From a virus (lineage: Duplodnaviria > Caudoviricetes): 50,709 bases of DNA. The stretch spans positions 1-50,709 of IMG/VR virus record IMGVR_UViG_3300034100_000034; one strand, given 5' to 3'. The stretch's first letter is position 1. Each line of letters starts with the position of its first letter. The position numbers were made by a program, and so were the translations under genes. Below are positions 27,428 to 50,512 of the stretch, piece after piece. The notes below the pieces were generated by a model. It was not told where the DNA came from and made no database searches. It was given only the letters and a program-made list of their open reading frames with translations.

Positions 27428-28273
27428 ATGGCTACAGCCAACAAACCAACTGAGAAAGTGAATCTCCCCGCAGAAGTGCCGCGCGCCGCGCTGGCGACGC
27501 TGGCCGAGGACGCCTTTGCGGCCGATGCGGGCGCAGGCATGGAGGGCGCCACCAGCGAGTCCTTCGCCATCCCGTTCCTGGGCGTGCTGCAGAAAGGGTC
27601 GCCGCAGGTGGACGAGGCCGACGGCGCATTCGTCGAGGGGGCCAAAGCCGGGCTGTTCTTCGAGAACGTCACGGGCCGGCTCTACGACGGCAAGACCGGA
27701 GTGCTGCTGGTGCCTTGCGCTTACCGGCGCACCTTTTTGCGCTGGGGCGCGCGCGGCGAGCCCGGCGCAGGGTTCAAGGGCGAGATTGCGCCCGAGGAAG
27801 TGGCGCAGATGCGCGCAGAAGGGAAGATCGTGGACCTGGACGGCAGGCTGTTTGTGCCGCTGCCGGACGGCACGGTGAATGACAAAAAGTGCGATAGCGT
27901 CCGCGACACCCGCAACCACTACGTGCTGCTCATCGACGAGCAGACCGGTGCCTGGACCCAGGCGTTGGTCTCGTTGGTTTCGACGCAGATCAAGAAGTCC
28001 AAGATGCTGATGAGCGCGCTGGCCTCCGTGAAGTTGGTGGGCGCGGCCGGGACCTACACCCCGCCCACGTTCGCCAACCTGGTGCGCTGCCACTCCGTGC
28101 CCGAGTCCAATGACAAGGGCACTTGGCACGGGGTGAAGTTCGAGCTGGCCGGCCGAGTGGACCGGACCGAAGTGTACGCGGCCGCAAAGGCTTTCCACGC
28201 CTCCGTGGCCAAGGGCGTCGTCGAGGCCAAGTACGAAGACGCGCCGAGCGCACCCGCAGACGACCGGTTCTGA
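27428..28273 (+). CDS. Probable single-stranded DNA-binding protein
   Basis: AIPFLGVLQKGSPQV, STQIKKSK, NDKGTW, acidic C-terminus ending in F. Confidence 0.65.
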   Translation: MATANKPTEKVNLPAEVPRAALATLAEDAFAADAGAGMEGATSESFAIPFLGVLQKGSPQVDEADGAFVEGAKAGLFFENVTGRLYDGKTGVLLVPCAYRRTFLRWGARGEPGAGFKGEIAPEEVAQMRAEGKIVDLDGRLFVPLPDGTVNDKKCDSVRDTRNHYVLLIDEQTGAWTQALVSLVSTQIKKSKMLMSALASVKLVGAAGTYTPPTFANLVRCHSVPESNDKGTWHGVKFELAGRVDRTEVYAAAKAFHASVAKGVVEAKYEDAPSAPADDRF

Positions 28274-28281
28274 CCGAGAAC

Positions 28282-28315
28282 AAGGGCTGCGCAAAGCTGC
28301 TGCGCAGCCCTTTAT
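28282..28315 (+). terminator. Probable intrinsic terminator
   Basis: AAGGGCTGCGCA...TGCGCAGCCCTT stem then T/A-rich tail. Confidence 0.6.
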
Positions 28316-28345
28316 AGCGAAGATACTTTAGAAAGGACACCAAAA

Positions 28346-28534
28346 ATGAACCAATCACCCGCCAATCCCAAGGCGATGTTGCTCTCGGACAGCGTCTGCC
28401 TTGAAGCAGCGCCGGCCCGGCCGCGACAAGACAACGCCTTCCTGCGCCCCGTCTACGTCCCGGTCCGCAACGCCCCCGCCCGCCCCGGCGCGGAGGACGC
28501 GCTGCGCATCCCAAGTCGAGGGGTGGCCGCATGA
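28346..28534 (+). CDS. Hypothetical protein
   Basis: AAAGGA RBS; RPGAEDALRIPSRG. Confidence 0.6.
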   Translation: MNQSPANPKAMLLSDSVCLEAAPARPRQDNAFLRPVYVPVRNAPARPGAEDALRIPSRGVAA

Positions 28535-28623
28535 GCATTGGAGCTTACACACTAATGCTAATTGTTGCCGTGTCTTTCTTAATCGGCTGGTGGGCTCGCT
28601 GCGCCCCGTCCTGCATGATTTAA
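28531..28623 (+). CDS. 30-aa membrane peptide
   Basis: MSIGAYTLMLIVAVSFLIGWWARCAPSCMI; ATGA overlap. Confidence 0.45.
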   Translation: MSIGAYTLMLIVAVSFLIGWWARCAPSCMI

Positions 28624-28651
28624 GGAGCCGACTTTTAAAGAGAGGTAGAGG

Positions 28652-28888
28652 ATGGGGATCAGCAAACTTGGAGTGGCCGCCAGGGCCGCCTACTACGCAG
28701 AGCGGCGAGAGCACGTCAACCAGTGGGATTCGGTAGCGGGCGCGGTTGTTGCGGCAGACCGCGAGAGAATTGCCGAGGCTGCCCGACTTGTTATCCGTGA
28801 CTACCAGGCCAGCGATGATGAGGATTTGGATGAACTTGTGCAGCGCGCTGTGCGCGATCTGTGCCGACGGCTGGACGTCGAACTGTGA
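28652..28888 (+). CDS. Hypothetical protein
   Basis: GAGG RBS; stops just before attC-like site 1. Confidence 0.6.
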   Translation: MGISKLGVAARAAYYAERREHVNQWDSVAGAVVAADRERIAEAARLVIRDYQASDDEDLDELVQRAVRDLCRRLDVEL

Positions 28889-28889
28889 C

Positions 28890-28954
28890 GCCGAACGCTG
28901 AATGAAGGGGCCGCGCGAAAAGCCGCGCGGCCCCGCTTACATGCCGGGTTGGGC
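28890..28954 (-). mobile_element. attC: attC-type site 1
   Basis: Minus: GCCCAAC ccggc ATGTAAGC ... CCTTCAT tcagc GTTCGGC with GC-rich central stem. Confidence 0.8.
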
Positions 28955-28974
28955 GGCATTTTTTGGAGAAGGCG

Positions 28975-29376
28975 ATGGAACACGGATATTACTGGCTGCA
29001 CCTGAAAGACCAAGAACCGGAGGTTGTTGAGATTGACGGCAACTCGATGCATCGATGTGGCAGTGACGTGGGCTGCTATCTTGAGGACGGGAAATGGCAC
29101 GAAGGACTTTTTGCCGAAACTATGGATGTAGTTTCTATCATCGGGCCGCTGACGCCTACCGATGGCAGGATGTTTGTCACTGAGTATCTGCGCCTTGGCG
29201 ATGACGGGCCGGAGATTGTCCGGCACGCATTGGCTGAATGGCCGGAGTGGGCGGAGGCATTGCGCGAGATGATGACGCCCAACGCAGAAATAGCCGGCTC
29301 CGCGCTTGCCCAGCCTGGGAGACCCGACATGAACCAGCAATCCGAACTCAGCCGGGACGTGTTCGATCCGGGTTGA
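28975..29376 (+). CDS. Hypothetical cassette-like gene
   Basis: GGAG RBS; GYYW..PEVV; C-terminus reads through attC site 2. Confidence 0.65.
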   Translation: MEHGYYWLHLKDQEPEVVEIDGNSMHRCGSDVGCYLEDGKWHEGLFAETMDVVSIIGPLTPTDGRMFVTEYLRLGDDGPEIVRHALAEWPEWAEALREMMTPNAEIAGSALAQPGRPDMNQQSELSRDVFDPG

Positions 29377-29390
29377 GCGTAGGGTTGTGC
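29277..29390 (-). mobile_element. attC: attC-type site 2
   Basis: Minus: GCACAAC cctac GCTCAACC ... GGCTATT tctgc GTTGGGC. Confidence 0.7.
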
Positions 29391-29410
29391 GGCATTTTTG
29401 GGATAAAGCG

Positions 29411-29578
29411 ATGAAAGCACGATTTGAAGCGGCACTGTTGCGACTGGCTGCGTGGGTACTGGATCGCAATGTAAAACGGTCAATGGTCGTTTCACGCCGC
29501 GACAATAACTGGCTGTTTGAGGCGGAACGCGAATTGAGCGCCATCGCAGGCAGGATTGAAGCCGGGTATGACGCATAA
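29411..29578 (+). CDS. Hypothetical cassette-like gene
   Basis: Stop TAA lies in the GCATAAC box of attC site 3. Confidence 0.6.
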   Translation: MKARFEAALLRLAAWVLDRNVKRSMVVSRRDNNWLFEAERELSAIAGRIEAGYDA

Positions 29579-29660
29579 CGTCTTGTTGAACGGGGCGCCG
29601 TGACAAGACACCCGGAGCGCGCTGCTGCCGTAGCGCCCCCGTTCGAACAAGGGGTTAGCC
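29573..29660 (-). mobile_element. attC: attC-type site 3
   Basis: Minus: GGCTAAC ccctt GTTCGAAC ... GTTCAAC aagac GTTATGC; extra C in L''. Confidence 0.88.
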
Positions 29661-29697
29661 GGCCCCCACGAAAACCGGCACAACCTTGGAGCGCAAC

Positions 29698-29943
29698 ATG
29701 CGTGCAATGAGTGAAGCGATTGAAGGCGCCCGGGACTTCCGGGGGATGATGGACAAGATCGAGGCCGACACGGCGAGGCAGGCGAACATGCTGCGGATGC
29801 AGGCGGCCATGCAGGGCGACACGCCCGACGAGCGACGCTACAGCGTGCTGCCCGACCGCCAGCCGGGCGAGAACCGCGCTGCGCACCGTGCCCGCCTGAA
29901 GCGCGAGCGCCGCGAAGCCAAGACCGGCAAGGTGACGGCATGA
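29698..29943 (+). CDS. Hypothetical protein
   Basis: GGAG RBS; basic C-terminus. Confidence 0.6.
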   Translation: MRAMSEAIEGARDFRGMMDKIEADTARQANMLRMQAAMQGDTPDERRYSVLPDRQPGENRAAHRARLKRERREAKTGKVTA

Positions 29944-30200
29944 CGCCCAGCGCCCGCCTGAGCGTGGACCTGCAGGACATTGCCGCGCGCCTGCACACGA
30001 TGCTGGAACAGTCGGCCGGCGAGCCCTGCGCGTTTGTGCTGGTGTGCCAGGCTGACGGCGTGGCGCAGTACGTGAGCAATGCCGACCGCAAGGACGGGCG
30101 CAAGCTGATCGAAAGCCTGTTGGCACGCTGGAAGGCTGGGCGCGCGGACATCCCCGCACACTACAACCCGGACCTTCGACCGCCACAGGCGGGGAGCTGA
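29940..30200 (+). CDS. Hypothetical protein
   Basis: FVLV...QYVSNADR; ATGA overlap. Confidence 0.7.
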   Translation: MTPSARLSVDLQDIAARLHTMLEQSAGEPCAFVLVCQADGVAQYVSNADRKDGRKLIESLLARWKAGRADIPAHYNPDLRPPQAGS

Positions 30201-30248
30201 GAAGCTACAGCCGCTTGTGTACACCGATCAATCAACTGGAGAGAAGAA

Positions 30249-30437
30249 ATGAACGAAGCCATGAAGATTTACCCGCAATGCGGATTGTCCGAATCTCACT
30301 TCGGAAACCGCGACAACGCGCGCAATGCCAGCGCAACCAAGAACGGTCCTGGTCGTCATCATGTAAACGGTGATGGCCCACCACCTACGGCAGCCGATGC
30401 CATCACCACCATGAAATCTGAACTGGAGAAATCATGA
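30249..30437 (+). CDS. Hypothetical protein
   Basis: GGAG RBS; ends LEKS. Confidence 0.55.
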   Translation: MNEAMKIYPQCGLSESHFGNRDNARNASATKNGPGRHHVNGDGPPPTAADAITTMKSELEKS

Positions 30438-30598
30438 AACGAGCACTACAAACTACTGGACTGACAATTATGATTGCAGTTGCTGTGGCAGCGGTCCAGC
30501 ACGCAGCTTGGAGCAGCGACTACAAGATAGGGGCCACGCTAGCCGTCCTTTTGTTTGGCGCGTTTTTTGTGTTCCTCTCTAGCCTGGAGAAATCATGA
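30434..30598 (+). CDS. 54-aa two-TM membrane protein
   Basis: MKRALQTTGLTIMIAVAVAAV...ATLAVLLFGAFFVFLSSLEKS; ATGA overlaps. Confidence 0.6.
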   Translation: MKRALQTTGLTIMIAVAVAAVQHAAWSSDYKIGATLAVLLFGAFFVFLSSLEKS

Positions 30599-30792
30599 AA
30601 TACATCATCACTCAAGAGCAGGTTGAAAGTCTCGGACTTGATACCGTAGCATTGCTTGCAGAACTCAAACCCATTGAGCCGCTGACCCAGGATAAGATTC
30701 TCGACATGGCTGAGGGGTGCACGTTGCAGTTCCATGATTTACTGGCCTTTGGAAGATCAGTCGAAGCCGCCATCATTGGAGAGAAATCATGA
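30595..30792 (+). CDS. Hypothetical protein
   Basis: PLTQDKI...FGRSVEAA; ends GEKS. Confidence 0.65.
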   Translation: MKYIITQEQVESLGLDTVALLAELKPIEPLTQDKILDMAEGCTLQFHDLLAFGRSVEAAIIGEKS

Positions 30793-31433
30793 GCACACCT
30801 GATCTGCTGGCGCTGCCAGATAGTTTTGCAGACAAGAGTTCAGCTACTCCGCTGGAAAAAGCATTCCGGTTCCTCAATGCTCTGAGAACCCCAGATGCCA
30901 AATATTTCTTTGGTGACGGCTATCCTAAAAACGATGCTATAAAAAAAGATGCCAACGCTACTTCCGCTGTCATCGCCGCACTGGAAGCCGCCAAAGCGCA
31001 GCCAGTGGAGCCGCAAGATGGATCACTTCCGGCTGGATTTCACCCTGATTTGAACTGTTCCAAAGAATGGGACATGCCCATAATCATGACCACTCCAGAC
31101 GCTATTGAAGAACTGATAAAAAAGACTATGGCAGCGCAGCCAGTAGTGCCGCAGGGATGGAAGATGGTCCCGATTGAGCCGACGAAGGCTATGTTGAAAG
31201 CGCCACCTAATGCATGGGAGGCAGATGCAAAGATTACCTATAAAGCCATGCTCGCCGCCTCTCCCGCGCCCCTTGTGGTGCCGGTAGAGTTTCCGATAGC
31301 GGCCTGGGGAAGGTCATTTGTGAGTACGGGCGAAATCGGAGATTGTATCTCTCCAACAGAACATGAACGTCTTGAGGGAGACTACACCATTGCATTGGTG
31401 CGCCTCAGCGATGCACAAGGAGTGAAGAAATGA
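30789..31433 (+). CDS. Mosaic Ead/Eaa-like hypothetical protein
   Basis: VPQGWKMVPIEPTKAM...YKAMLAASP motif. Confidence 0.65.
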   Translation: MSTPDLLALPDSFADKSSATPLEKAFRFLNALRTPDAKYFFGDGYPKNDAIKKDANATSAVIAALEAAKAQPVEPQDGSLPAGFHPDLNCSKEWDMPIIMTTPDAIEELIKKTMAAQPVVPQGWKMVPIEPTKAMLKAPPNAWEADAKITYKAMLAASPAPLVVPVEFPIAAWGRSFVSTGEIGDCISPTEHERLEGDYTIALVRLSDAQGVKK

Positions 31434-31708
31434 CCGAACAAGACAAGGCCGTGGCGCTGGCTGAGAAGCACGGCGTTTTTGCTGACACCGCATTTCTCTG
31501 GAAAGCAGAACTCGCCACCATGCTTGCCGACTACAAACAGCAAGTCACCGAAGCCATACAGAAAGACTGCCGGACGTGCGTGAATCTTGGCTGGTGTAAC
31601 ACCTGTGGGCCGATGCCGCCGAATTCTGATCTGGCGACAACGCGAATCTGCACCAAACACAACCAATGGACTCCGATGGAGTTCAAACAACTGACAAGGA
31701 GCGAGTGA
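31430..31708 (+). CDS. Cys-rich hypothetical protein
   Basis: AGGAG RBS; CxxC. Confidence 0.6.
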   Translation: MTEQDKAVALAEKHGVFADTAFLWKAELATMLADYKQQVTEAIQKDCRTCVNLGWCNTCGPMPPNSDLATTRICTKHNQWTPMEFKQLTRSE

Positions 31709-32023
31709 ATGACCTACTCACCCGTTGCAGAGTGGGCTGACAAGCGCCCCCGTCTGCGCTGGATGGCTGTGTCCTGTGTATTGGCTGTCATCGTTATTGG
31801 CGCATATGGACTTGTCGGAGCACTCGACGAAATCCAGGAGCGAAAGGACGCGGAAGCCAATCTCACGCAGGCCGAGCGAGATTCGCAAGAACAGCGGCGC
31901 AAGCTCCAGGCGGTGCAGGACATGAGCGTTGGTGAAAACGGCGAGTGCAAATGGGCTGACAAAACGACCATCAAATGCGTCAATAAAAAGGGGCGCGAGG
32001 TTTTCAGAAAGGAAGTGCTATGA
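31709..32023 (+). CDS. Membrane-anchored hypothetical protein
   Basis: One TM segment then coiled coil. Confidence 0.6.
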   Translation: MTYSPVAEWADKRPRLRWMAVSCVLAVIVIGAYGLVGALDEIQERKDAEANLTQAERDSQEQRRKLQAVQDMSVGENGECKWADKTTIKCVNKKGREVFRKEVL

Positions 32024-32063
32024 AATTAGGAAACGTCGCACGGCAGGCTACGGCAGAAAATAG

Positions 32064-32318
32064 GTGGGCACAATGACTACTTGGTACAAAGCTGGTTTTG
32101 GAAAAATAGAAGAAGTTGAAGTAGAGCGAGAAACAGAGCTGTTTGTCGTCTTCAAAAACGGGAGAAGGTCAGCCAAGAATTCTGATTGGGTCTGGTATGC
32201 CCAGGATCGCGAACAAGCTAAACAGGTGATGATTGCAAACTACCAGCGTCAACTTGATTTGGCAAAACATGATGTCATCGTGAATGAAAAGAGGCTTGAA
32301 GAAGCCAGGAGCGCATAG
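32064..32318 (+). CDS. Hypothetical protein
   Basis: IEEVEVERETE..V...RRSAK motif. Confidence 0.65.
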   Translation: MGTMTTWYKAGFGKIEEVEVERETELFVVFKNGRRSAKNSDWVWYAQDREQAKQVMIANYQRQLDLAKHDVIVNEKRLEEARSA

Positions 32319-32380
32319 GAGAACATATGGGACATGCATCGTGCCTCAGGGCATGGCGGTGGCAGAGGTGCAGGCGTGAT

Positions 32381-32434
32381 TTGTAACGCGCCGCTGATCG
32401 GACCGAAGGGTCCGCATCGGGCGGATGGTTATCG
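32381..32434 (-). mobile_element. attC: attC-type site 4 (short)
   Basis: Minus: CGATAAC catcc GCCCGATG cggacccttcggtcc GATCAGC ggcgc GTTACAA. Confidence 0.7.
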
Positions 32435-32455
32435 GGCAGATTTAACAGGAGAGAA

Positions 32456-32689
32456 ATGATGACACCAGCGCAAATCAAAGCCAAGGTCGGGCAGACAGTC
32501 ACAGAAGCCGAGATGGCCGACATGCTGAAAACCAACCCAATCGGGACGGCTGACGGAGACATGCGTGTGCGCAGTGGCGTGCTTGAGTTTTCGTTCGGTC
32601 CGGGTGGCGTCAAGCTGATAGCCGCCGAGGTACGCAAACCGCTGCCAGATAACGCAAAATTAAGCTGGCGCGAAGCGATCCGCTCTTGA
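32456..32689 (+). CDS. Hypothetical cassette-like gene
   Basis: AGGAG RBS; C-terminus PDNAKLSWREAIRS is encoded by attC site 5. Confidence 0.65.
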   Translation: MMTPAQIKAKVGQTVTEAEMADMLKTNPIGTADGDMRVRSGVLEFSFGPGGVKLIAAEVRKPLPDNAKLSWREAIRS

Positions 32690-32703
32690 ATGATGGGTTA
32701 TGC
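32647..32703 (-). mobile_element. attC: attC-type site 5 (57 bp)
   Basis: Minus: GCATAAC ccatc ATTCAAGA gcggatcgcttcgcgcca GCTTAAT tttgc GTTATCT. Confidence 0.88.
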
Positions 32704-32730
32704 CGGTGACGGCCTAAGCAAAGGGAAAAG

Positions 32731-32967
32731 ATGGTATACGAAAAAATGGAGCAAGGCAGCGGAAGCCCGAAGTTTTGCTGGCACTGCGGAAAGCAACTGC
32801 GACGCGCACCGGGTAAAGGAATGGGGTTGTTCTACTTTCGCACGCTGGTCGATCCGCTGGGTGCAGAGCATCGTGTACATGGAGACTGCGCACAGAGTGC
32901 CATAGGCGATAGCGTGAGGCTGAAGGTGCCCAGCCCAAAAATCAGCAGCGGCACGTCCGCTGCATGA
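32731..32967 (+). CDS. Zn-ribbon hypothetical cassette-like gene
   Basis: CWHC...HGDC. Confidence 0.6.
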   Translation: MVYEKMEQGSGSPKFCWHCGKQLRRAPGKGMGLFYFRTLVDPLGAEHRVHGDCAQSAIGDSVRLKVPSPKISSGTSAA

Positions 32968-32977
32968 GACGTTAGAA
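32928..32977 (-). mobile_element. Degenerate attC-type site 6
   Basis: Minus: TTCTAAC gtctc ATGCAGCG gacgtgccgctgctgat ttttgg GCTGGGC. Confidence 0.5.
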
Positions 32978-32986
32978 AGGAGAATC

Positions 32987-33058
32987 ATGATTGAATTTCA
33001 AGACTTCCCAAAACTTCCCATGGCGCGGCTTGCCTTTGCTGGTTTGGGCGCGAAGTGA
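32987..33058 (+). pseudogene. Short remnant ORF, possibly the N-terminus of a phage RNA ligase
   Basis: AAAGGAG RBS; MIEFQDFPK(LP)MARL then runs into a half attC. Confidence 0.4.
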
Positions 33059-33083
33059 TCCGCTCTCGAATGAAAGGTTTGGT
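33046..33083 (-). mobile_element. Half attC site 7 (partial copy of site 5)
   Basis: GGCGCGAAGTGATCCGCTCTCGAATGAAAGGTT versus GGCGCGAAGCGATCCGCTCTTGAATGATGGGTT. Confidence 0.7.
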
Positions 33084-33117
33084 GACTGTTGAACGAAGCA
33101 ACGAAAGGATGAGCGCG

Positions 33118-33348
33118 ATGGACGACAAAGAAGCGAAGCAACTTGCAGAAATTGCTGCGACTTGCGTGTTTGCCTGCTTAGACGGACGGGCAACAGTAAC
33201 AATCTCGACGCGCGGGAAGAGGCCATTGGGGTTTCCGCGCGGCGAACTGTTAAGCGTTGGAACCGACGGCTCGAACAACTATGCCTTCCATCCAGTAAAG
33301 GTGCTGGCGTGGCTTCATGCCCGCACGAGCAAGACGCTCAACGCTTGA
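33118..33348 (+). CDS. Hypothetical cassette-like gene
   Basis: AAAGGA RBS; GFPRGELL; ends inside attC site 8. Confidence 0.65.
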   Translation: MDDKEAKQLAEIAATCVFACLDGRATVTISTRGKRPLGFPRGELLSVGTDGSNNYAFHPVKVLAWLHARTSKTLNA

Positions 33349-33430
33349 GCTAAGCGGGCGCTGCCCGCAAGGAGATTCGATGACTACAGAAGCCGGCCGG
33401 CAGCGCCCCGACTTGAGCGACGGGTTAGGC
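33336..33430 (-). mobile_element. attC: attC-type site 8
   Basis: Minus: GCCTAAC ccgtc GCTCAAGT ... GCTTAGC tcaagc GTTGAGC. Confidence 0.9.
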
Positions 33431-33748
33431 GCTGGTTCCGACCTCTACCTCCGCGCGCTGGCGTTCAATGACGACGACCCCGAGCGCAAGGCGCTGATGG
33501 CGAAGGTGTGGTGCGGTACGCCGTGGATGGTGGATGCCTACACCGGCTCGCACGACTCGGCCCGCAGGCACGAACTGATGGAGTGGTGCCGCGAACAGTT
33601 CGGGCCGGAAGCGTGGCCGATACACGGGCACGCCGGGCAATGGCACTCAGGCGGCGCGACCGTAGACGGCTGGACGTGGATGGGGTTCGCAACCGAAGAC
33701 CAGATGCATCGATTCGTGGAACGCTGGCCGGCGCCTAACGCAGGATAG
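33380..33748 (+). CDS. Trp-rich hypothetical cassette-like gene; RBS and ATG lie inside attC site 8
   Basis: AAGGAG-attcg-ATG in hairpin loop; WCREQFG...F.TE....F..RW; ends PNAG. Confidence 0.7.
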   Translation: MTTEAGRQRPDLSDGLGAGSDLYLRALAFNDDDPERKALMAKVWCGTPWMVDAYTGSHDSARRHELMEWCREQFGPEAWPIHGHAGQWHSGGATVDGWTWMGFATEDQMHRFVERWPAPNAG

Positions 33749-33790
33749 ACCGCGAAATATCCTGTCCGGAATATCAGACGGAATAACACC
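33733..33790 (-). mobile_element. Terminal core site GTTAGGC without a partner box (attI-like or decayed attC)
   Basis: Minus: ...GGTCTAT cctgc GTTAGGC; upstream short repeats GTTATTCCG/GATATTCCG/GATATTTCG. Confidence 0.45.
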
Positions 33791-33890
33791 ATGAACTGCT
33801 CAGAACACAAGCACCGCACGTGCCCCGGAACACACTGCCAATCCGGGTGCCACTTCAACGAGGCAGATACCCAACCGCCGTATGAGGAGC

Positions 33891-34127
33891 ATGACAATGA
33901 ACAATCTTTCTCTGATCGACTTGGCCATGGAAGTGGCCGCATGGACTCTATTGTCCGTCCTACTGCTGGTCTTGCTGTACCTGCTGGTCCGAGAGGCTCT
34001 GTTTCATTTTGGGCTTTCGGACGCGGCAAGAAAGACGTTTGATGCAGAGCAAGCAAGGATCGACGTCGAGAAGATGCTTAGGGACGCTGGAGAAGTCGGA
34101 GACTGGCGCCGGAATGGGGGTGCGTGA
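33891..34127 (+). CDS. Membrane protein
   Basis: GAGGAG RBS; strong TM segment. Confidence 0.55.
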   Translation: MTMNNLSLIDLAMEVAAWTLLSVLLLVLLYLLVREALFHFGLSDAARKTFDAEQARIDVEKMLRDAGEVGDWRRNGGA

Positions 34128-34645
34128 TGTTGTCCTGCGAATTTGATGGAGATGGCGGGGACGTTGCGTGGTGGTATGACTCCGCCGGCAAGATCGGACC
34201 CCTGACAACAAAACGCACGCGCAAATGCTGCTCATGTAGGGGCCGCATTGCAGTTGGCGACGACTGCATGAAGTTCCGACGGTGGCGCACTCCGAATGAG
34301 GATAGCGTCGCGTATCGCATCCATGGCGAGGAAGAGAGTCTTGCGGCATGGTATCTGTGCGACCGCTGCGCCGGCCTATATGAGTCACTGAGTAGCCTTG
34401 GATTTTGCAACCTGCTAGGGCAGGATTTGCGCGATGTGTGCCGCGAGTATGCACAAATGCAGCGCGATGCCGGAGTGTTTCGCGGGCAGATGGTGTTCAA
34501 CGCGGCACCTGCACAAGTCACTTTCGGTAGCATCCATCCAGTCGATTCGCTGAAGCAATTCATTCCCGACATGAACCCTGAAGCCGAAAACAAGCGCGAT
34601 CTTGAGCAGCCCGTCTATCACCCGGAGGAAGGGACTGACAAATGA
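34124..34645 (+). CDS. Cys-rich (Zn-binding) hypothetical protein
   Basis: CCSC and CDRC motifs. Confidence 0.7.
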   Translation: MMLSCEFDGDGGDVAWWYDSAGKIGPLTTKRTRKCCSCRGRIAVGDDCMKFRRWRTPNEDSVAYRIHGEEESLAAWYLCDRCAGLYESLSSLGFCNLLGQDLRDVCREYAQMQRDAGVFRGQMVFNAAPAQVTFGSIHPVDSLKQFIPDMNPEAENKRDLEQPVYHPEEGTDK

Positions 34646-35133
34646 AACATCTTCTGATTGCTCTGATTTGGTTTCCCGTTGCGGTGTTCGCAAACTGTCT
34701 GCGTGTCGATGTGTTGCCTGTTGAAGTTGTTGAAGACACATCGCGCTCGCATGCTGAAATATCAAGAATGACAGACGGTGTTGGGACATTTGGCGCTGTC
34801 ATCACATCGAGCATCGTGACGTTTGAATGGTGCGTGCTTACGGTCGGATACCGTCCGATGATGATGTTTATCGCTCGCGAACTGCTGGCTGATCGTTGCG
34901 CGCTCAGACACGTTCGAGGCCATGAGATGCGCCACGTCGAAATATACCGAGAAGGCTTGGTCGGAATTGAAGACAGAATCGTTCTGCGTGTTACCAATGG
35001 TGAAACTCCTATCGAAGCCGCAAATGCGGAGATTGCGGCGATTCGCGCCCGTCAAGAGGCGCATGACAGCCCGGAAGAATACGCGCTGAACAGATTCAAG
35101 TGCAACGGCCGCATATTGGCTGCGGTCAAATGA
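34642..35133 (+). CDS. Secreted zinc-peptidase-like protein (DUF922-like)
   Basis: Signal peptide; HEMRH (HEXXH). Confidence 0.6.
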   Translation: MKHLLIALIWFPVAVFANCLRVDVLPVEVVEDTSRSHAEISRMTDGVGTFGAVITSSIVTFEWCVLTVGYRPMMMFIARELLADRCALRHVRGHEMRHVEIYREGLVGIEDRIVLRVTNGETPIEAANAEIAAIRARQEAHDSPEEYALNRFKCNGRILAAVK

Positions 35134-35144
35134 TCAGCACCAGG

Positions 35145-35345
35145 CTACCAACTGAACCCGAATAGACCAACGATTGCGTGCCACGCGCGCATCACAGTGA
35201 AATAGGCGTCCTTGCGCTCTTTGTCGATCTCTGCCTGGATTGCCCGGTGGCCCCCACCAATCGAGAAATTTGCCTGCTGAGGCGCCGCGCAGGACGCCGT
35301 CAGGATCGCGGCAAGAATGATAGTGATGATGTTCTTACGCACCAT
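35145..35345 (-). CDS. Small lipoprotein (spanin candidate)
   Basis: Lipobox LTASC after hydrophobic leader; end of lysis cassette. Confidence 0.55.
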   Translation of the reverse strand: MVRKNIITIILAAILTASCAAPQQANFSIGGGHRAIQAEIDKERKDAYFTVMRAWHAIVGLFGFSW

Positions 35346-35592
35346 TTTCCCAGCACCGTTTGGCGTCTTCGCCGGCCTTCTTCGCCAATGCACGGACGGC
35401 CGCTTCGACTCCGGCTTGATACGCCCGTTGCATTTCTTCTTCGTATTTCTCTTTCGTGAGGAGAGCGCACCCGCCTTGGGAGTCGCATGCCGCGCGCACT
35501 TCATCGCTGAGAGAGATTCCTGATTCTTGCGCCTGGGCGGCTGCAAGAAATGACAATGTCACCATGCCCACAAGTTTCGCCGCTATTTGCAT
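35335..35592 (-). CDS. Signal-peptide/TM protein (lysis-associated?)
   Basis: N-terminal hydrophobic segment, helical C-terminus; GGAG RBS. Confidence 0.55.
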   Translation of the reverse strand: MQIAAKLVGMVTLSFLAAAQAQESGISLSDEVRAACDSQGGCALLTKEKYEEEMQRAYQAGVEAAVRALAKKAGEDAKRCWENGA

Positions 35593-35594
35593 GA

Positions 35595-35945
35595 TCAATC
35601 TCCAAAGTGGTCGCCGTTGGGCGAGATGAAATTGAGAAGACTTGCCAGCCTGCGAGCCACATCGCCGCGCCACCCACGATCAAGGCGCATGCCGGCGATT
35701 TGGCGGCTGACAAACACCTCGCGCCGGCGTGGCTTGCGCCACATCAAAAGGGGGAAAATGGTGTGAGCAACGATCAGATTCATCGGGTGGAACAGAATCC
35801 CTGCCGCCCAGCATGCGTTCCAGAATCCGCCCCGTTCATGCTGGATGTAGACGGTGTAGAGACAGAGCAAAACCGCCGGGAGACCAACGCTCGCGGCCGC
35901 CATCGCTGCTATTGCGTGAGCTACCACCAAGAAAATGTCCAGCAT
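35595..35945 (-). CDS. Membrane protein
   Basis: Two hydrophobic segments; follows endolysin. Confidence 0.6.
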   Translation of the reverse strand: MLDIFLVVAHAIAAMAAASVGLPAVLLCLYTVYIQHERGGFWNACWAAGILFHPMNLIVAHTIFPLLMWRKPRRREVFVSRQIAGMRLDRGWRGDVARRLASLLNFISPNGDHFGD

Positions 35946-35959
35946 GGCAATCCCCACAG

Positions 35960-36409
35960 TTAAATCAAAGCAATTTCCACCTCTCGCCGAATTGTAAGCC
36001 CGCGCAAGACAATTCCGCCGACCTTGTTCCACTTGCGCAGCTCGCCCGGCACGTCGGCCCAGCGCCCGGCGTTGATGCGGCGTCGCAAGGTGCTTGCCGC
36101 CAGCCGCCCGGACCCAAGGTTGAACGCGAAGTCGATGATCGCCGCCAGTCGCCCGGCTGGCTCATGCGCCAGCGCGGGGCACAGCCGCAAGACGGCCGGC
36201 AGGTAGACTGCGCTGATATGCCACAGCAGCAAGGCTTCGGCGCGGGCCTTGGAGATCGCCGGATCGCGTAGGGCTACCCTCGTACCGTCTTCGTAGAAAG
36301 TCGCCCCGTAGCCGATTGTAGGAACCCCGGCAGGGCATAAATAGGGGCGCAGGTACAGCCCCTCAAAGCGCCGGCACAGCGCAGCGGCTATTTCGGCCCC
36401 AGTGGTCAT
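35960..36409 (-). CDS. Endolysin (GH24 lysozyme)
   Basis: FEGL...YLCPAGVPTIGYG, FAFNLG, GLTIRR..E. Confidence 0.95.
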   Translation of the reverse strand: MTTGAEIAAALCRRFEGLYLRPYLCPAGVPTIGYGATFYEDGTRVALRDPAISKARAEALLLWHISAVYLPAVLRLCPALAHEPAGRLAAIIDFAFNLGSGRLAASTLRRRINAGRWADVPGELRKWNKVGGIVLRGLTIRREVEIALI

Positions 36410-49717: not shown

Positions 49718-50512
49718 TTATGTCCTCACTAATTGAATTTGCGAGCTGCCGAGCTTGAGCAACGGGCGAAGCAGCGCGTCTATGGCTTTGTACTGTACGG
49801 TGGCGGTGCTGCCGGCTTCGTAGGTGGTGCTGATGGGGCCGACTGAGACGCTGGCCTTGCGCTGTGTCTGATCGGCCAATAGGTTGCCTGCCGCCGCGCG
49901 CAACGCCAATTCCGCGCAGGCGTTTTTTACCTCTTGCGGCACGACGTTGTTGGCGTAGTAGTTGGACAGCGCACTGTCCTTGCGCGGAACCATCTGCCGA
50001 GGCCAGTCGAGCGCCTGCGTCTCTGTCATACGCTCCCCAGCCCACCGCATCCGATAGGTCTCCGTCATGTAATCCGTGGCCCGGATGAGATGCCCATGTT
50101 TGGCTGTGTGACTGAGCGCCGTCCACGTTGTATTGCCGCGTCTTGCGTGGTACTGATCCGCCTCCTCATTGCTGCACAAGGAAACTGCCGTTGCCAGTCC
50201 TGCGCCAGTCTCAACGACGAACCATTCTTGCGGGACTGCTATCGTCGCAAGGCTGAACGCCTCGATAGATGGGCCGGTGTTGTTCGTGGCGATGACGCCA
50301 ACTTTCAGCGTGTGACTCCCATCATCCGTCGTGATGACGTATGTGGAACTTGTCGCTCCGGGGATGACAGCGGAATTGTCATTGACTCGATACCACTGGA
50401 AGGCATACGAGTCAACGCCGCCCGTCCACGTCCCGGTGCTTGCCGTCAGCGTTTCACCAACATCAACCGTGCCGGTTATGGCGGGGACTGCCGTGTTGAC
50501 AGGTTCAGCCAT
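49718..50512 (-). CDS. Head-tail adaptor copy B with N-terminal Ig-like domain
   Basis: PVNTAVPAITGT..VGETLTASTGTW...YAFQW...GATSSTY then DnaT-like domain. Confidence 0.8.
   Translation of the reverse strand: MAEPVNTAVPAITGTVDVGETLTASTGTWTGGVDSYAFQWYRVNDNSAVIPGATSSTYVITTDDGSHTLKVGVIATNNTGPSIEAFSLATIAVPQEWFVVETGAGLATAVSLCSNEEADQYHARRGNTTWTALSHTAKHGHLIRATDYMTETYRMRWAGERMTETQALDWPRQMVPRKDSALSNYYANNVVPQEVKNACAELALRAAAGNLLADQTQRKASVSVGPISTTYEAGSTATVQYKAIDALLRPLLKLGSSQIQLVRT

What the first reader, a model, noticed from the sequence alone, without database searches (positions are those of the whole stretch)
33336..33748. attC hairpins double as coding sequence and translation-start signals
Seen: the loop of site 8 contains AAGGAG and the ATG (33380) of the next gene, so its first ~17 codons are attC sequence. 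The loop of site 2 also holds GGAG..ATG. Upstream genes end in or read through the sites (PNAG*, LNA*, PDNAKLSWREAIRS*, TPNAEIAG..., TAA within GCATAAC). Inference: with the inverted layout each unit carries its attC at the 5' end and borrows its stop or C-terminal tail from the next unit. Rearrangement would then change protein C-termini and translational coupling.
Basis: partly seen in the sequence, partly recalled or inferred. Interest (0 to 1): 0.7.

Follow-up and report, generated by a model that had tools for sequence, protein, structure and literature searches.

The report
Phage integron cassettes read backwards
A phage that has no integrase keeps several small genes as integron-type swappable cassettes built back to front, so the folded recombination site in front of a gene can also carry that gene's ribosome-binding site, start codon and first codons, and often supplies the end of the gene before it.

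Summary
Confirmed. The window is a complete 50.7-kb phage record without a tyrosine recombinase. A covariance model built only from 33 attC sites lying beside intI1-type genes finds five hits in the window, all on the + strand (28890-33430; 20-49 bits). The next best hit scores 10.8 bits. Site 2 is marginal.

The + strand is the attC bottom strand and also the coding strand.

The site at 33336-33430 holds AAGGAG and the ATG at 33380 in its terminal loop. The first 17 codons are attC sequence, and they are disordered in a fold model.

Five other arrays carry the same gene with the same upstream attC. All six sequences stay alike up to GCGCCTAAC, then diverge. Of 37 aligned homologues, 13 have an attC-encoded N-terminal extension plus a C-terminal "PN" and a tail; only one repeats the window's tail. 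Families D, F and I behave alike.

Two limits apply: only one gene here clearly starts inside a hairpin, and translational coupling is inferred.

Phage attC clusters are published (Qi et al. 2023). I did not find this reversed, coding layout in print. Earlier reports of this scan describe it on other phage DNA.

The parts
33336..33430 (+). attC site 8, with the bottom strand on +. It has R' GCTCAAC, a 6-nt spacer, an L box, a stem, a 33-nt apical region, an L'' box with an extra-helical G, a 5-nt spacer and R'' GTTAGGC. It belongs to the cassette of the gene that follows.
   Evidence: The model R2 scores it 48.7 bits, E 2.7e-8, and 31.2 bits locally. It passes the strict rule with 8 of 8 R-box positions and 6 of 6 L pairs. 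A consensus fold over 5 arrays has 25 pairs, 4 of them compensatory.
33369..33374 (+). Shine-Dalgarno AAGGAG in the apical loop of site 8, 5 nt before the ATG.
   Evidence: Seen. A matching AAGGA plus GTG sits at the same place in L119, L121 and L122.
33380..33748 (+). Gene G, 122 aa, function unknown. Codons 1-17 are attC sequence. The last codons, N-A-G-stop, cross the cassette border.
   Evidence: There are 72 homologues, aligned. The only other in-frame starts are TTG 33413, which has no SD, and ATG 33497, which would remove 39 residues. The AlphaFold model has pLDDT 84, with residues 1-16 below 50.
33733..33739 (+). GCCTAAC, the R'-type box that ends cassette G. It is a half-site; no complete attC follows it.
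   Evidence: Six sequences diverge right after this box. The model finds no hit here.
33109..33348 (+). Gene F, 79 aa. It ends LNA*, with its stop in the 5' spacer of site 8, 31 nt before the ATG of gene G.
   Evidence: There are 82 homologues. Of 22 aligned, 7 have xN at this column followed by unlike tails or a stop.
32647..32703 (+). attC site 7, 57 nt.
   Evidence: R2 scores it 27.0 bits, E 2.9e-4. It is a strict-rule hit.
32456..32689 (+). Gene D, 77 aa. Its last 13 codons are read from site 7.
   Evidence: Its 5 homologues agree up to PLPD(N)A, then stop or diverge.
32381..32434 (+). attC site 6, 54 nt, the weakest of the five.
   Evidence: R2 scores it 20.4 bits, E 0.01. It has 5 of 6 L pairs, so it is not a strict-rule hit.
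29573..29660 (+). attC site 3, 88 nt. The TAA of its GCATAAC is the stop of gene B.
   Evidence: R2 scores it 31.9 bits, E 2.1e-5. DNA folding gives z -3.9. It is a strict-rule hit.
29411..29578 (+). Gene B, 55 aa. Its stop codon lies inside the R' box, before the crossover point.
   Evidence: It matches phrog_23588 over residues 2-53, E 6.4e-13.
29277..29390 (+). Site 2, a marginal or decayed attC lying wholly inside the reading frame of gene A.
   Evidence: R2 scores it 19.5 bits, E 0.19, and it was not listed with filters off. It fails the strict rule. Folding gives z +0.5.
28975..29376 (+). Gene A, 133 aa. It reads through site 2, giving a 32-residue tail after the AAC.
   Evidence: Seen. 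None of its 4 homologues shares the tail.
28890..28954 (+). attC site 1, 65 nt.
   Evidence: R2 scores it 31.2 bits, E 3e-5. It is a strict-rule hit. Folding gives z -4.4.
34127..34645 (+). Gene I. It is related to a cassette gene of a second phage. Similarity ends just before a lone R'-type box, GTTCAAC, at 34495-34501, and the frame then runs on for about 48 codons.
   Evidence: tblastn gives 61% identity over residues 2-124 to L121 6004-6381, which lies between two attC sites there.

Best explanation
The hairpins are genuine integron-type attC recombination sites in an integrase-less cluster (a CALIN) inside a phage accessory region. They are reversed relative to classical cassettes: the strand that folds and is cut by an integron integrase (the bottom strand) is also the mRNA-like strand.

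The crossover lies in the 5' box (RYYYAA|C). Each mobile unit is therefore the attC, then the gene, then RYYYAA. Three things follow.

(a) The attC is the 5' leader of its own gene. In long sites (86-120 nt) the variable terminal loop holds the Shine-Dalgarno sequence and the start codon. The 3' arm (L'' box, spacer, R'' box) is then translated as a 17-24-residue unstructured N-terminal extension that ends in L-G-x-G. This is the case for gene G at 33380.

(b) The gene ends in one of two ways. It may stop on the TAA inside its own RYYTAA, which makes it independent of its neighbour. Or it may read AAC as Asn and take its last residues and its stop from the next unit.

(c) Moving a cassette therefore changes the C-terminal tail of the gene upstream.

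Shown here: the identity of the sites, the strand, the unit borders, the variable tails, and the conserved loop-borne start.

Inferred: that a host IntI still moves these units, and that the hairpin in the mRNA tunes or couples translation. For example, a ribosome ending gene F 31 nt upstream might open the stem.
For: Identity of the sites:
- Model R2 was built from 33 attC sites next to intI1-type genes. It gives 5 window hits at E <= 0.01, all on the + strand; the next hit has E 1.8. Site 8 scores 48.7 bits.
- The strict rule was validated on 80 intI loci: 110 hits on the bottom strand upstream of intI, against 4, 3 and 4 elsewhere.

Strand:
- R100 aadA1 served as the reference, with the rule taken from passages of PMC5027507.
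- ORF strand is 39 of 40 on the top strand in real integrons and 23 of 24 on the bottom strand in the gene G arrays.

Unit borders:
- The upstream attC is conserved with gene G in 5 arrays.
- The sequences diverge right after the AAC in 6 arrays.

Start codon:
- AAGGAG and ATG lie in the loop, and the alternative starts are poor.
- M-T-T-E is conserved while the following codons shift frame between arrays.
- 13 of 37 homologues have an extension of 17-24 residues ending in LG.G, and all 13 also have the C-terminal PN.
- Residues 1-16 have pLDDT below 50.

Generality, over 29 cassettes from 6 loci:
- The best start lies inside the attC in 12, 10 of them with an SD. All 12 are in sites of 86 nt or more.
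- The stop is the TAA of the R box in 11, lies beyond the crossover in 13, and lies before the box in 5.

A second phage record (58 kb, CheckV completeness 76%) has 13 sites, all on one strand, and no PF00589 match.
Against: - No integrase is present in the phage and no recombination was observed. Several sites are decayed: site 2, the half-site at 33733, and the remnants near 33047 and 34495. One inter-site interval of 2.7 kb holds ten genes and no attC.
- In this window only gene G clearly starts inside a hairpin. A, B, C1 and D start 21-38 nt after their site.
- The site 2 loop ATG is not a gene start.
- DNA folding of site 8 alone is not significant, and its minimum-energy fold is not the attC fold.
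- The codon-position GC test was indecisive for the window's own genes: 3 of 4 intervals were called '-'. Their strand therefore rests on homologues and on SD-plus-start pairs.
- For gene A, two homologues stop being similar near residue 60, not at A's own AAC.
- The training sites of R2 were picked with my own box rule.
- There are no expression or protein data.
Confidence: 0.82

Rival explanations
1. Fossil array. The sites are attC by descent but are no longer recombined in this phage. The coding overlap would then be a passive result of genome compaction and has no role in translation.
For: The phage has no integrase. Site 2 is marginal, the site at 33733 is a half-site, and remnants lie at 33047-33079 and 34495. 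Ten genes sit without any attC between sites 3 and 6. Relatives of this phage lack the whole region.
Against: Five sites still score 20-49 bits, with intact boxes and bulges. The stem of the G-linked site keeps pairing through 4 compensatory changes. The same cassette sits next to different neighbours in 6 sequences, so it moved recently enough to keep about 78-88% identity. Qi et al. 2023 showed that IntI1 recombines 5 of 6 attC sites from virulent phages (section 3.4 read).
Confidence: 0.3
2. Ordinary cassette orientation. Each attC would belong to the gene before it, and the N-terminal extension of gene G would be an annotation artefact with the true start downstream.
For: Both strands of an attC read RYYYAAC...GTTRRRY, so gene-then-site looks classical at first sight. 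Free-standing homologues start at G-T-D-L-Y, for example L036.
Against: The model prefers the + strand by more than 20 bits, and no - strand hit at these sites appeared at E <= 10. The bulges lie on the 3' arm. Gene G keeps its upstream attC and swaps its downstream one. No usable start lies between 33383 and the conserved core.
Confidence: 0.04
3. The hairpins are generic phage hairpins, such as terminators, RNA regulators or repeated palindromes, that resemble attC by chance.
For: They sit at gene junctions. A terminator-like stem with a T run overlaps the 3' end of site 1, at 28941-28959. The whole-window excess over shuffles is modest: 5 observed against a mean of 0.77 and a maximum of 4 in 200 shuffles.
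Against: A model trained on real attC sites separates them cleanly from everything else in the window. The first 20 nt of site 8 nearly match the R100 aadA1 attC bottom strand. The other sites have no T runs, and terminator-like sites are no more frequent than in shuffles, 12 against 11.7. The sites also mark the borders of a mobile unit.
Confidence: 0.04

Closest known systems
CALINs (clusters of attC sites lacking an integron integrase) in temperate and virulent phage genomes; Qi, Rajabal, Ghaly, Tetu and Gillings 2023, PMC9892861
   Same: Both are attC clusters of two or more sites in phage genomes without intI. Both lie among small accessory genes. The published sites are proven IntI1 substrates (section 3.4 read).
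   Different: That paper calls the cassette direction in two phages 'most typical of bacterial arrays'. In the parts I read it says nothing about genes on the attC bottom strand, about starts inside attC, or about stops borrowed across the crossover.
ORF-11 and ORF-18 of attI1 in class 1 integrons (Hanau-Bercot et al.), as described in the review PMC8876359
   Same: A short frame with its own SD and ATG lies inside a recombination site, spans the crossover, and takes its stop from the core site of whichever cassette is inserted. It aids translation of the next gene by coupling (passages).
   Different: That case concerns attI, not attC. It involves an 11-18-residue leader peptide, not the N-terminus of the cargo protein, and it lies on the classical strand.
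attC stem-loops as translational barriers, relieved by short ORFs inside attC (Jacquier et al. 2009), as described in PMC8876359
   Same: attC hairpins in the mRNA affect ribosomes, and frames inside attC can couple translation (passages).
   Different: There the mRNA carries the top strand, the attC follows its gene, and the frames inside it are short helpers. Here the mRNA carries the bottom strand and the cargo gene itself starts in the loop.
Classical integron cassettes, for example aadA1 of In2 on plasmid R100, and intI1-like chromosomal integrons of Betaproteobacteria
   Same: The site architecture is the same and the box sequences are close. The ends of site 8 resemble attC sites in the Accumulibacter and Zoogloea loci L113 and L082.
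   Different: In the classical case the gene is on the top strand and is followed by its own attC; 39 of 40 control cassettes are like this. Here the gene is on the bottom strand and is preceded by its own attC.
Toxin-antitoxin cassettes of sedentary chromosomal integrons
   Same: They are cassettes that do not rely on Pc. They carry their own promoter (PMC13108822, passage).
   Different: I recall, but did not check, that some TA cassettes are reverse-oriented; the passages I read do not say so. They are single exceptions inside classical arrays next to an integrase. Here whole arrays are reversed, and they lie in phages.

Membership tests
Integron attC recombination site | Inverse core boxes 5'-RYYYAAC ... 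GTTRRRY-3' at the two ends | tested here: met
   Agreement at the 8 degenerate positions is 8 for site 8, 7 for site 1, 6 for site 3 and 5 for site 7. Site 6 has TTGTAAC...GTTATCG.
Integron attC recombination site | L'/L'' boxes separated from the R boxes by unpaired spacers of 5-6 nt, with extra-helical bases on the arm opposite the AAC of the recombined strand | tested here: met
   Sites 1, 3, 7 and 8 have 6 of 6 L pairs with one bulged base on the 3' arm. Site 6 has 5 of 6. The rule was validated on 80 intI loci, with 110 hits against 4, 3 and 4. Its wording comes from PMC5027507.
Integron attC recombination site | Match to a covariance model of known attC sites, the approach IntegronFinder uses | tested here: met
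   My own model R2, built from 33 sites beside intI1-type genes, gives 5 hits of 20.4-48.7 bits, all on the + strand. The IntegronFinder model itself was not available.
Integron attC recombination site | Marks the border of a unit that is found next to different neighbours | tested here: met
   Cassette G keeps its upstream attC in 5 arrays. The sequences diverge after the AAC in 6.
Integron attC recombination site | Bound and recombined by an integron integrase | not testable with these tools
   This needs a suicide-conjugation or excision assay.
[quoted passage not shown] | Two or more attC sites on one strand less than 4 kb apart, with no intI nearby | tested here: met
   The five sites span 28890-33430 and the largest gap is 2.7 kb. 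There is no PF00589 match in the whole record, whose completeness is 100%. The definition comes from passages of PMC4889954.
Complete integron | An intI gene with an adjacent attI and the Pc promoter | tested here: not met
   No tyrosine recombinase is present. attI and Pc were not examined.
Classical gene cassette (ORF on the attC top strand, followed by its own attC) | The ORF lies on the top strand and the attC is linked to the upstream gene | tested here: not met
   The ORFs lie on the bottom strand. The attC is linked to the downstream gene.
Intrinsic transcription terminator | A GC-rich stem directly followed by a T run | tested here: not met
   Only the 3' end of site 1 was flagged, at 28941-28959. 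The region has 12 terminator-like sites against 11.7 in shuffles.

The most novel reading that the evidence does not exclude
Phages may keep their own pool of mirror-image integron cassettes. In these units the attC bottom strand is the mRNA strand and serves as a portable 5' leader, carrying the SD, the start codon and a disordered N-terminal tag. Host integron integrases would move the units between unrelated phages. Here the same units appear in a DnaE-type phage, in an ERF/Gp157 phage, and in a contig with ERF and NinB genes.

The reversed polarity would keep the two pools functionally apart. A phage cassette that landed in a bacterial integron would be antisense to Pc. A bacterial cassette, for example a defence gene, that landed in a phage array would be antisense to phage transcription.

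The fixed reading frame across the crossover (AAC always read as Asn, or TAA as the stop) would then be a design rule that lets any unit follow any other.
Probability: 0.35. Interest if true: 0.85.

Novelty: new variant of a known kind. Interest (0 to 1): 0.7.

Why it matters
Integron cassettes are usually described as promoterless genes followed by their recombination site and expressed from one bacterial promoter. The units described here use the same site type in reverse. The site comes before the gene, is transcribed as part of the mRNA and is partly translated. Recombination, translation initiation and protein termini are therefore tied to the same ~60-120 nucleotides.

This has several consequences:
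- The question of how cassettes are built, and how they are read, becomes testable with a simple natural series. One gene exists with an attC (13 of 37 aligned homologues) and without one.
- It predicts that shuffling a phage array alters the C-terminal tails of the proteins.
- It suggests that phages exchange accessory genes through the hosts' integron machinery without sharing the bacterial cassette pool.
- It is a warning for annotation. Tools that expect the ORF on the top strand will misplace cassette borders and gene starts in such arrays.

Tried and rejected
- A generic scan for AAC...GTT hairpins with constrained folding returned 40 candidates spread over the whole window. It was too unspecific, so I replaced it with the strict L-box rule.
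- A first covariance model built from two window sites (R1) found only its own two members and was dropped.
- MAFFT alignments of the window's sites were not structure-consistent and were not used for modelling.
- The megablast search of the phage collection found nothing.
- The codon-position GC test could not settle the coding strand inside the window.
- Gene G has no Pfam or PHROG family. Its model has no significant fold match in the PDB (best E 0.14). In BFVD the best E is 0.009, and the matches listed are uncharacterised proteins, mostly of phages. Its function stays unknown.
- Gene G was not found in 5 integron-bearing genomes or in 400 sampled genomes of their class. This is a negative without a positive control, so it shows nothing.
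- The two overlapping frames after site 7 (32690-32905 and 32731-32967) had no relatives in viral contigs. I therefore cannot say whether a gene starts inside site 7.
- The idea that the site 2 loop ATG starts a gene was rejected.
- None of the papers listed or read describes it.
Full report
CONTEXT. The window is a whole IMG/VR virus record of 50,709 bases. CheckV estimates it as 100% complete, and it has no match to the tyrosine recombinase family PF00589. The + strand carries a replication module: ThyX, DNA polymerase III alpha, an SNF2 helicase, and proteins like Pam3 gp33 and gp34. The - strand carries lysis and tail genes from about 35.3 kb onward, with the endolysin at 35960-36409. About twenty small + strand genes with no Pfam family lie in between, from about 28.3 to 35.9 kb. 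In several of the 34 related viral contigs, the gp34-like gene is followed almost directly by the endolysin gene. The small-gene region has next to no counterpart in them. It is therefore an accessory insertion at the meeting point of two convergent modules.

ARE THE HAIRPINS attC SITES? I used three lines of evidence.

First, I read the aadA1 attC of plasmid R100 as a reference. On the strand antisense to aadA1 it runs as follows: a box ending in AAC, a 6-nt spacer, a 6-nt L box, a stem-loop, an L box with one extra G, a 5-nt spacer, then GTTAGAC. Site 8 of the window (33336-33430) has the same plan on its + strand, and its first twenty letters are nearly the same.

Second, I turned this plan into a strict rule: AAC...GTT 35-135 nt apart, spacers of 5-6 nt, 6 of 6 Watson-Crick L pairs with one bulge on the 3' arm, and at least 5 of 8 R-box positions.
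- On 80 loci holding intI1-type genes, the rule gave 110 hits on the bottom strand upstream of intI. It gave 4 on the other strand there, and 3 and 4 in the rest of each locus, from the intI match onward.
- In the window it gave 4 hits on the + strand (28890, 29573, 32647, 33336) and 1 on the - strand at 50209. In 200 shuffles the mean was 0.77 and the maximum 4.
- In 531,922 bases of related phage loci it gave 3 and 2 hits on the two strands.

Third, I built a covariance model (R2) from 33 of the integron sites.
- With filters off it found five window hits, all on the + strand: 29573-29660 (31.9 bits), 28890-28954 (31.2), 33340-33426 (31.2), 32647-32703 (27.0) and 32381-32434 (20.4). The next hit scored 10.8 bits, E 1.8.
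- With default filters over 582,631 bases, site 8 scored 48.7 bits and site 2 (29277-29390) scored 19.5 bits, E 0.19. The related phages gave one partial hit of 19.1 bits.
- Plain folding was less telling. Sites 1 and 3 fold better than shuffles (z -4.4 and -3.9). Site 8 does not (z -1.1 and -1.6), and site 2 scores z +0.5.

WHICH STRAND? Nivina et al. 2016 state that on the bottom strand the AAC lies in the R' box and the extra-helical bases lie on the opposite arm (passages). In the window the bulges are on the 3' arm of the + strand, and the model trained on bottom strands matches only the + strand. The genes are also on the + strand. This is shown by protein homologues of A, D, F, G and I and by the PHROG match of B. 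A codon-position GC test was indecisive for the window itself, with 3 of 4 intervals called '-'.

As a control, in real integrons 39 of 40 distinct cassettes had their ORF on the top strand.

THE FINDING ITSELF. AAGGAG (33369-33374) and the ATG at 33380 lie in the unpaired apical part of site 8. The 17 codons up to 33430 are the 3' arm of the site. The only other in-frame starts are TTG 33413, with no Shine-Dalgarno sequence, and ATG 33497, which would remove 39 residues including conserved ones.

Gene G has 72 homologues. In an alignment of 37 of them:
- 13 have an N-terminal extension of 17-24 residues ending in L-G-x-G, which is the translation of the R'' box. All 13 also end with P-N plus a tail.
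- Of the 24 without the extension, 4 have a P-N. One of those is in another register.
- The 17 tails after P-N are all different from each other. One of them, in P0001, a 99%-identical copy, equals the window's own tail.
- Free-standing homologues, such as the one between terminase and portal genes in L036, begin at G-T-D-L-Y and lack the P-N.

An AlphaFold model (pLDDT 84) leaves residues 1-16 below pLDDT 50.

UNIT BORDERS. A metagenome scan gave 45 loci with relatives of gene G. In six of them (L118-L122, L125), model R2 finds arrays of attC sites at E < 0.01. All are on the gene's strand; three of the same sites also score weakly (17-22 bits) on the other strand. The G gene starts inside one site and ends in the next.
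- The attC upstream of gene G is homologous in the window and in L118, L119, L121 and L122. The alignment including short flanks has a mean column identity of 87%, with the SD and start in the loop. The consensus fold has 25 pairs, 4 of them kept by changes on both sides.
- Between the window and the others, a pair of single-base indels shifts the frame over the 3' arm, yet M-T-T-E and the L-G-A-G end are kept. This suggests selection on the structure and on an open frame, not on the peptide.
- Downstream, six sequences agree up to ...GCGCCTAAC (plus the consensus G), then diverge at once. The next site is 59, 86 or 87 nt long, or absent.
- The unit is therefore attC plus gene plus RYYYAA, as expected if the + strand is cut at AA|C.

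OTHER FAMILIES.
- Gene D: its 5 homologues agree up to P-L-P-D-(N)-A, then stop or differ.
- Gene F: of 22 aligned homologues out of 82 found, 7 have x-N at the same column followed by unlike tails or a stop. One has an N-terminal extension containing A-G-L-G.
- Gene I: it is 61% identical over residues 2-124 to a cassette gene of L121. Similarity ends just before a lone GTTCAAC at 34495.
- Gene B: it stops on the TAA of GCATAAC and matches a PHROG almost to its end.
- Gene A: this case is less clear. Two short homologues end at a P-N of their own near residue 60. None shares A's 32-residue tail.

HOW GENERAL. I examined 29 cassettes: 11 from L163, 8 from L119, 3 from L122, 1 each from L118 and L125, and 5 from the window. 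One multi-gene interval was skipped.
- The best start lay inside the attC in 12 (10 with an SD 4-10 nt upstream), after it in 15 (mostly +19 to +41 nt), and was not found in 2. All 12 inside starts are in sites of 86-120 nt.
- The stop was the TAA of the R box in 11, lay beyond the crossover in 13, and lay before the box in 5.
- All 11 distinct read-through tails printed read AAC as Asn, as does gene G in the window.

L121 is part of a 58,089-base viral record that CheckV rates 76% complete. That record has 13 sites, all on one strand, and no PF00589 match. Phage genes flank these arrays: ERF and Gp157 in L121, ERF and NinB in L119.

MECHANISM. The following are shown: site identity, strand, unit borders, variable tails, and a conserved loop-borne SD and start. 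As RNA, the G-linked sites would form very stable hairpins (-42.6 and -44.5 kcal/mol, z -2.7 and -5.4) with the start region in the apical part. The stop of gene F lies 31 nt upstream of the gene G start, in the 5' spacer. It is a reasonable but untested inference that ribosomes finishing gene F open the stem. This is analogous to the relief of attC barriers by short frames and to ORF-11 of attI1 (review PMC8876359, passages). That a host integrase moves these units is also inferred. Qi et al. 2023 showed that IntI1 recombines 5 of 6 attC sites from virulent phages.

COMPARISON AND NOVELTY. attC clusters in phages are published: 17 CALINs in Qi et al. 2023 (abstract, passages and all of section 3.4 read). 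I did not find the reversed layout with coding overlap in three full-text searches. I also did not find it in passages of Cury 2016, Nivina 2016, Richard 2024, the Darracq preprint, a 2026 cassette-recovery preprint or the Fonseca and Vicente review. Supplements were closed.

Earlier AI reports of this scan describe the same reversed design on other phage DNA. They agree with my reading, but they are not independent proof. I read them after my own analysis.

VERDICT. This is a new variant of a known kind. Interest 0.7.

Noticed in passing
window 28946-28980 and 29382-29416: A 35-nt direct repeat, 86% identical, starts in the R'' box region of site 1 and of site 2. It runs through a T run, a weak SD and the ATG of genes A and B, so the two genes share a leader. 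The first copy overlaps a terminator-like stem at 28941-28959.
   Followed up: partly
window 32667-32699 and 33047-33079; ORF 32987-33058: The 3' half of site 7 is repeated 380 nt downstream at 88% identity. Just before the second copy, a 23-codon frame with a strong SD (AGGAGA) ends in ...A-G-L-G-A-K-stop. It looks like the leader of a lost cassette gene.
   Followed up: partly
window 32327-32386: A 19-codon frame has AGGAG 5 nt upstream and starts 8 nt after the stop of the preceding gene. It ends exactly on the TAA of the R' box of site 6. It may be a leader or coupling peptide, or a remnant.
   Followed up: no
window 29661-32380: One inter-site interval of 2.7 kb holds ten tightly packed genes, several overlapping as ATGA. 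G+C drops from about 0.62 to 0.53 and no attC hit is found. It may be a multi-gene cassette or a separate insertion.
   Followed up: no
window 28273-35960 compared with L006, L007, L009, L011-L013: In related phages the gp34-like gene is followed within about 100-250 nt by the endolysin gene. The whole 7.7-kb small-gene region is specific to this phage among the 34 relatives fetched.
   Followed up: partly
arrays in L119, L121/L163, L122, L118, L125 and the window: Frames that reach the R' box either stop on its TAA or read AAC as Asn. No case of the third frame appeared among 24 frames reaching the box. Several of these belong to the same gene family, so the count is not independent.
   Followed up: partly
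window 33739-33790 and L118 about 1320-1370: After the last AAC, both the window and L118 continue with a short, similar stretch of about 20 nt that is not an attC. I found no model hit and did not test it further.
   Followed up: partly
L171 3643-3702, L175 9409-9784, L178 5300-5406, L135/L136 4306-4375: Other viral or metagenome contigs with gene G relatives hold one or two strong attC hits. In L171 and L175 the hits are on the strand opposite the gene. Their contexts were not examined.
   Followed up: no
L036 3102-3436: A free-standing relative of gene G, without an attC, sits between the large terminase and head-tail/portal genes of another phage. This is an unusual place for an accessory gene.
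   Followed up: no
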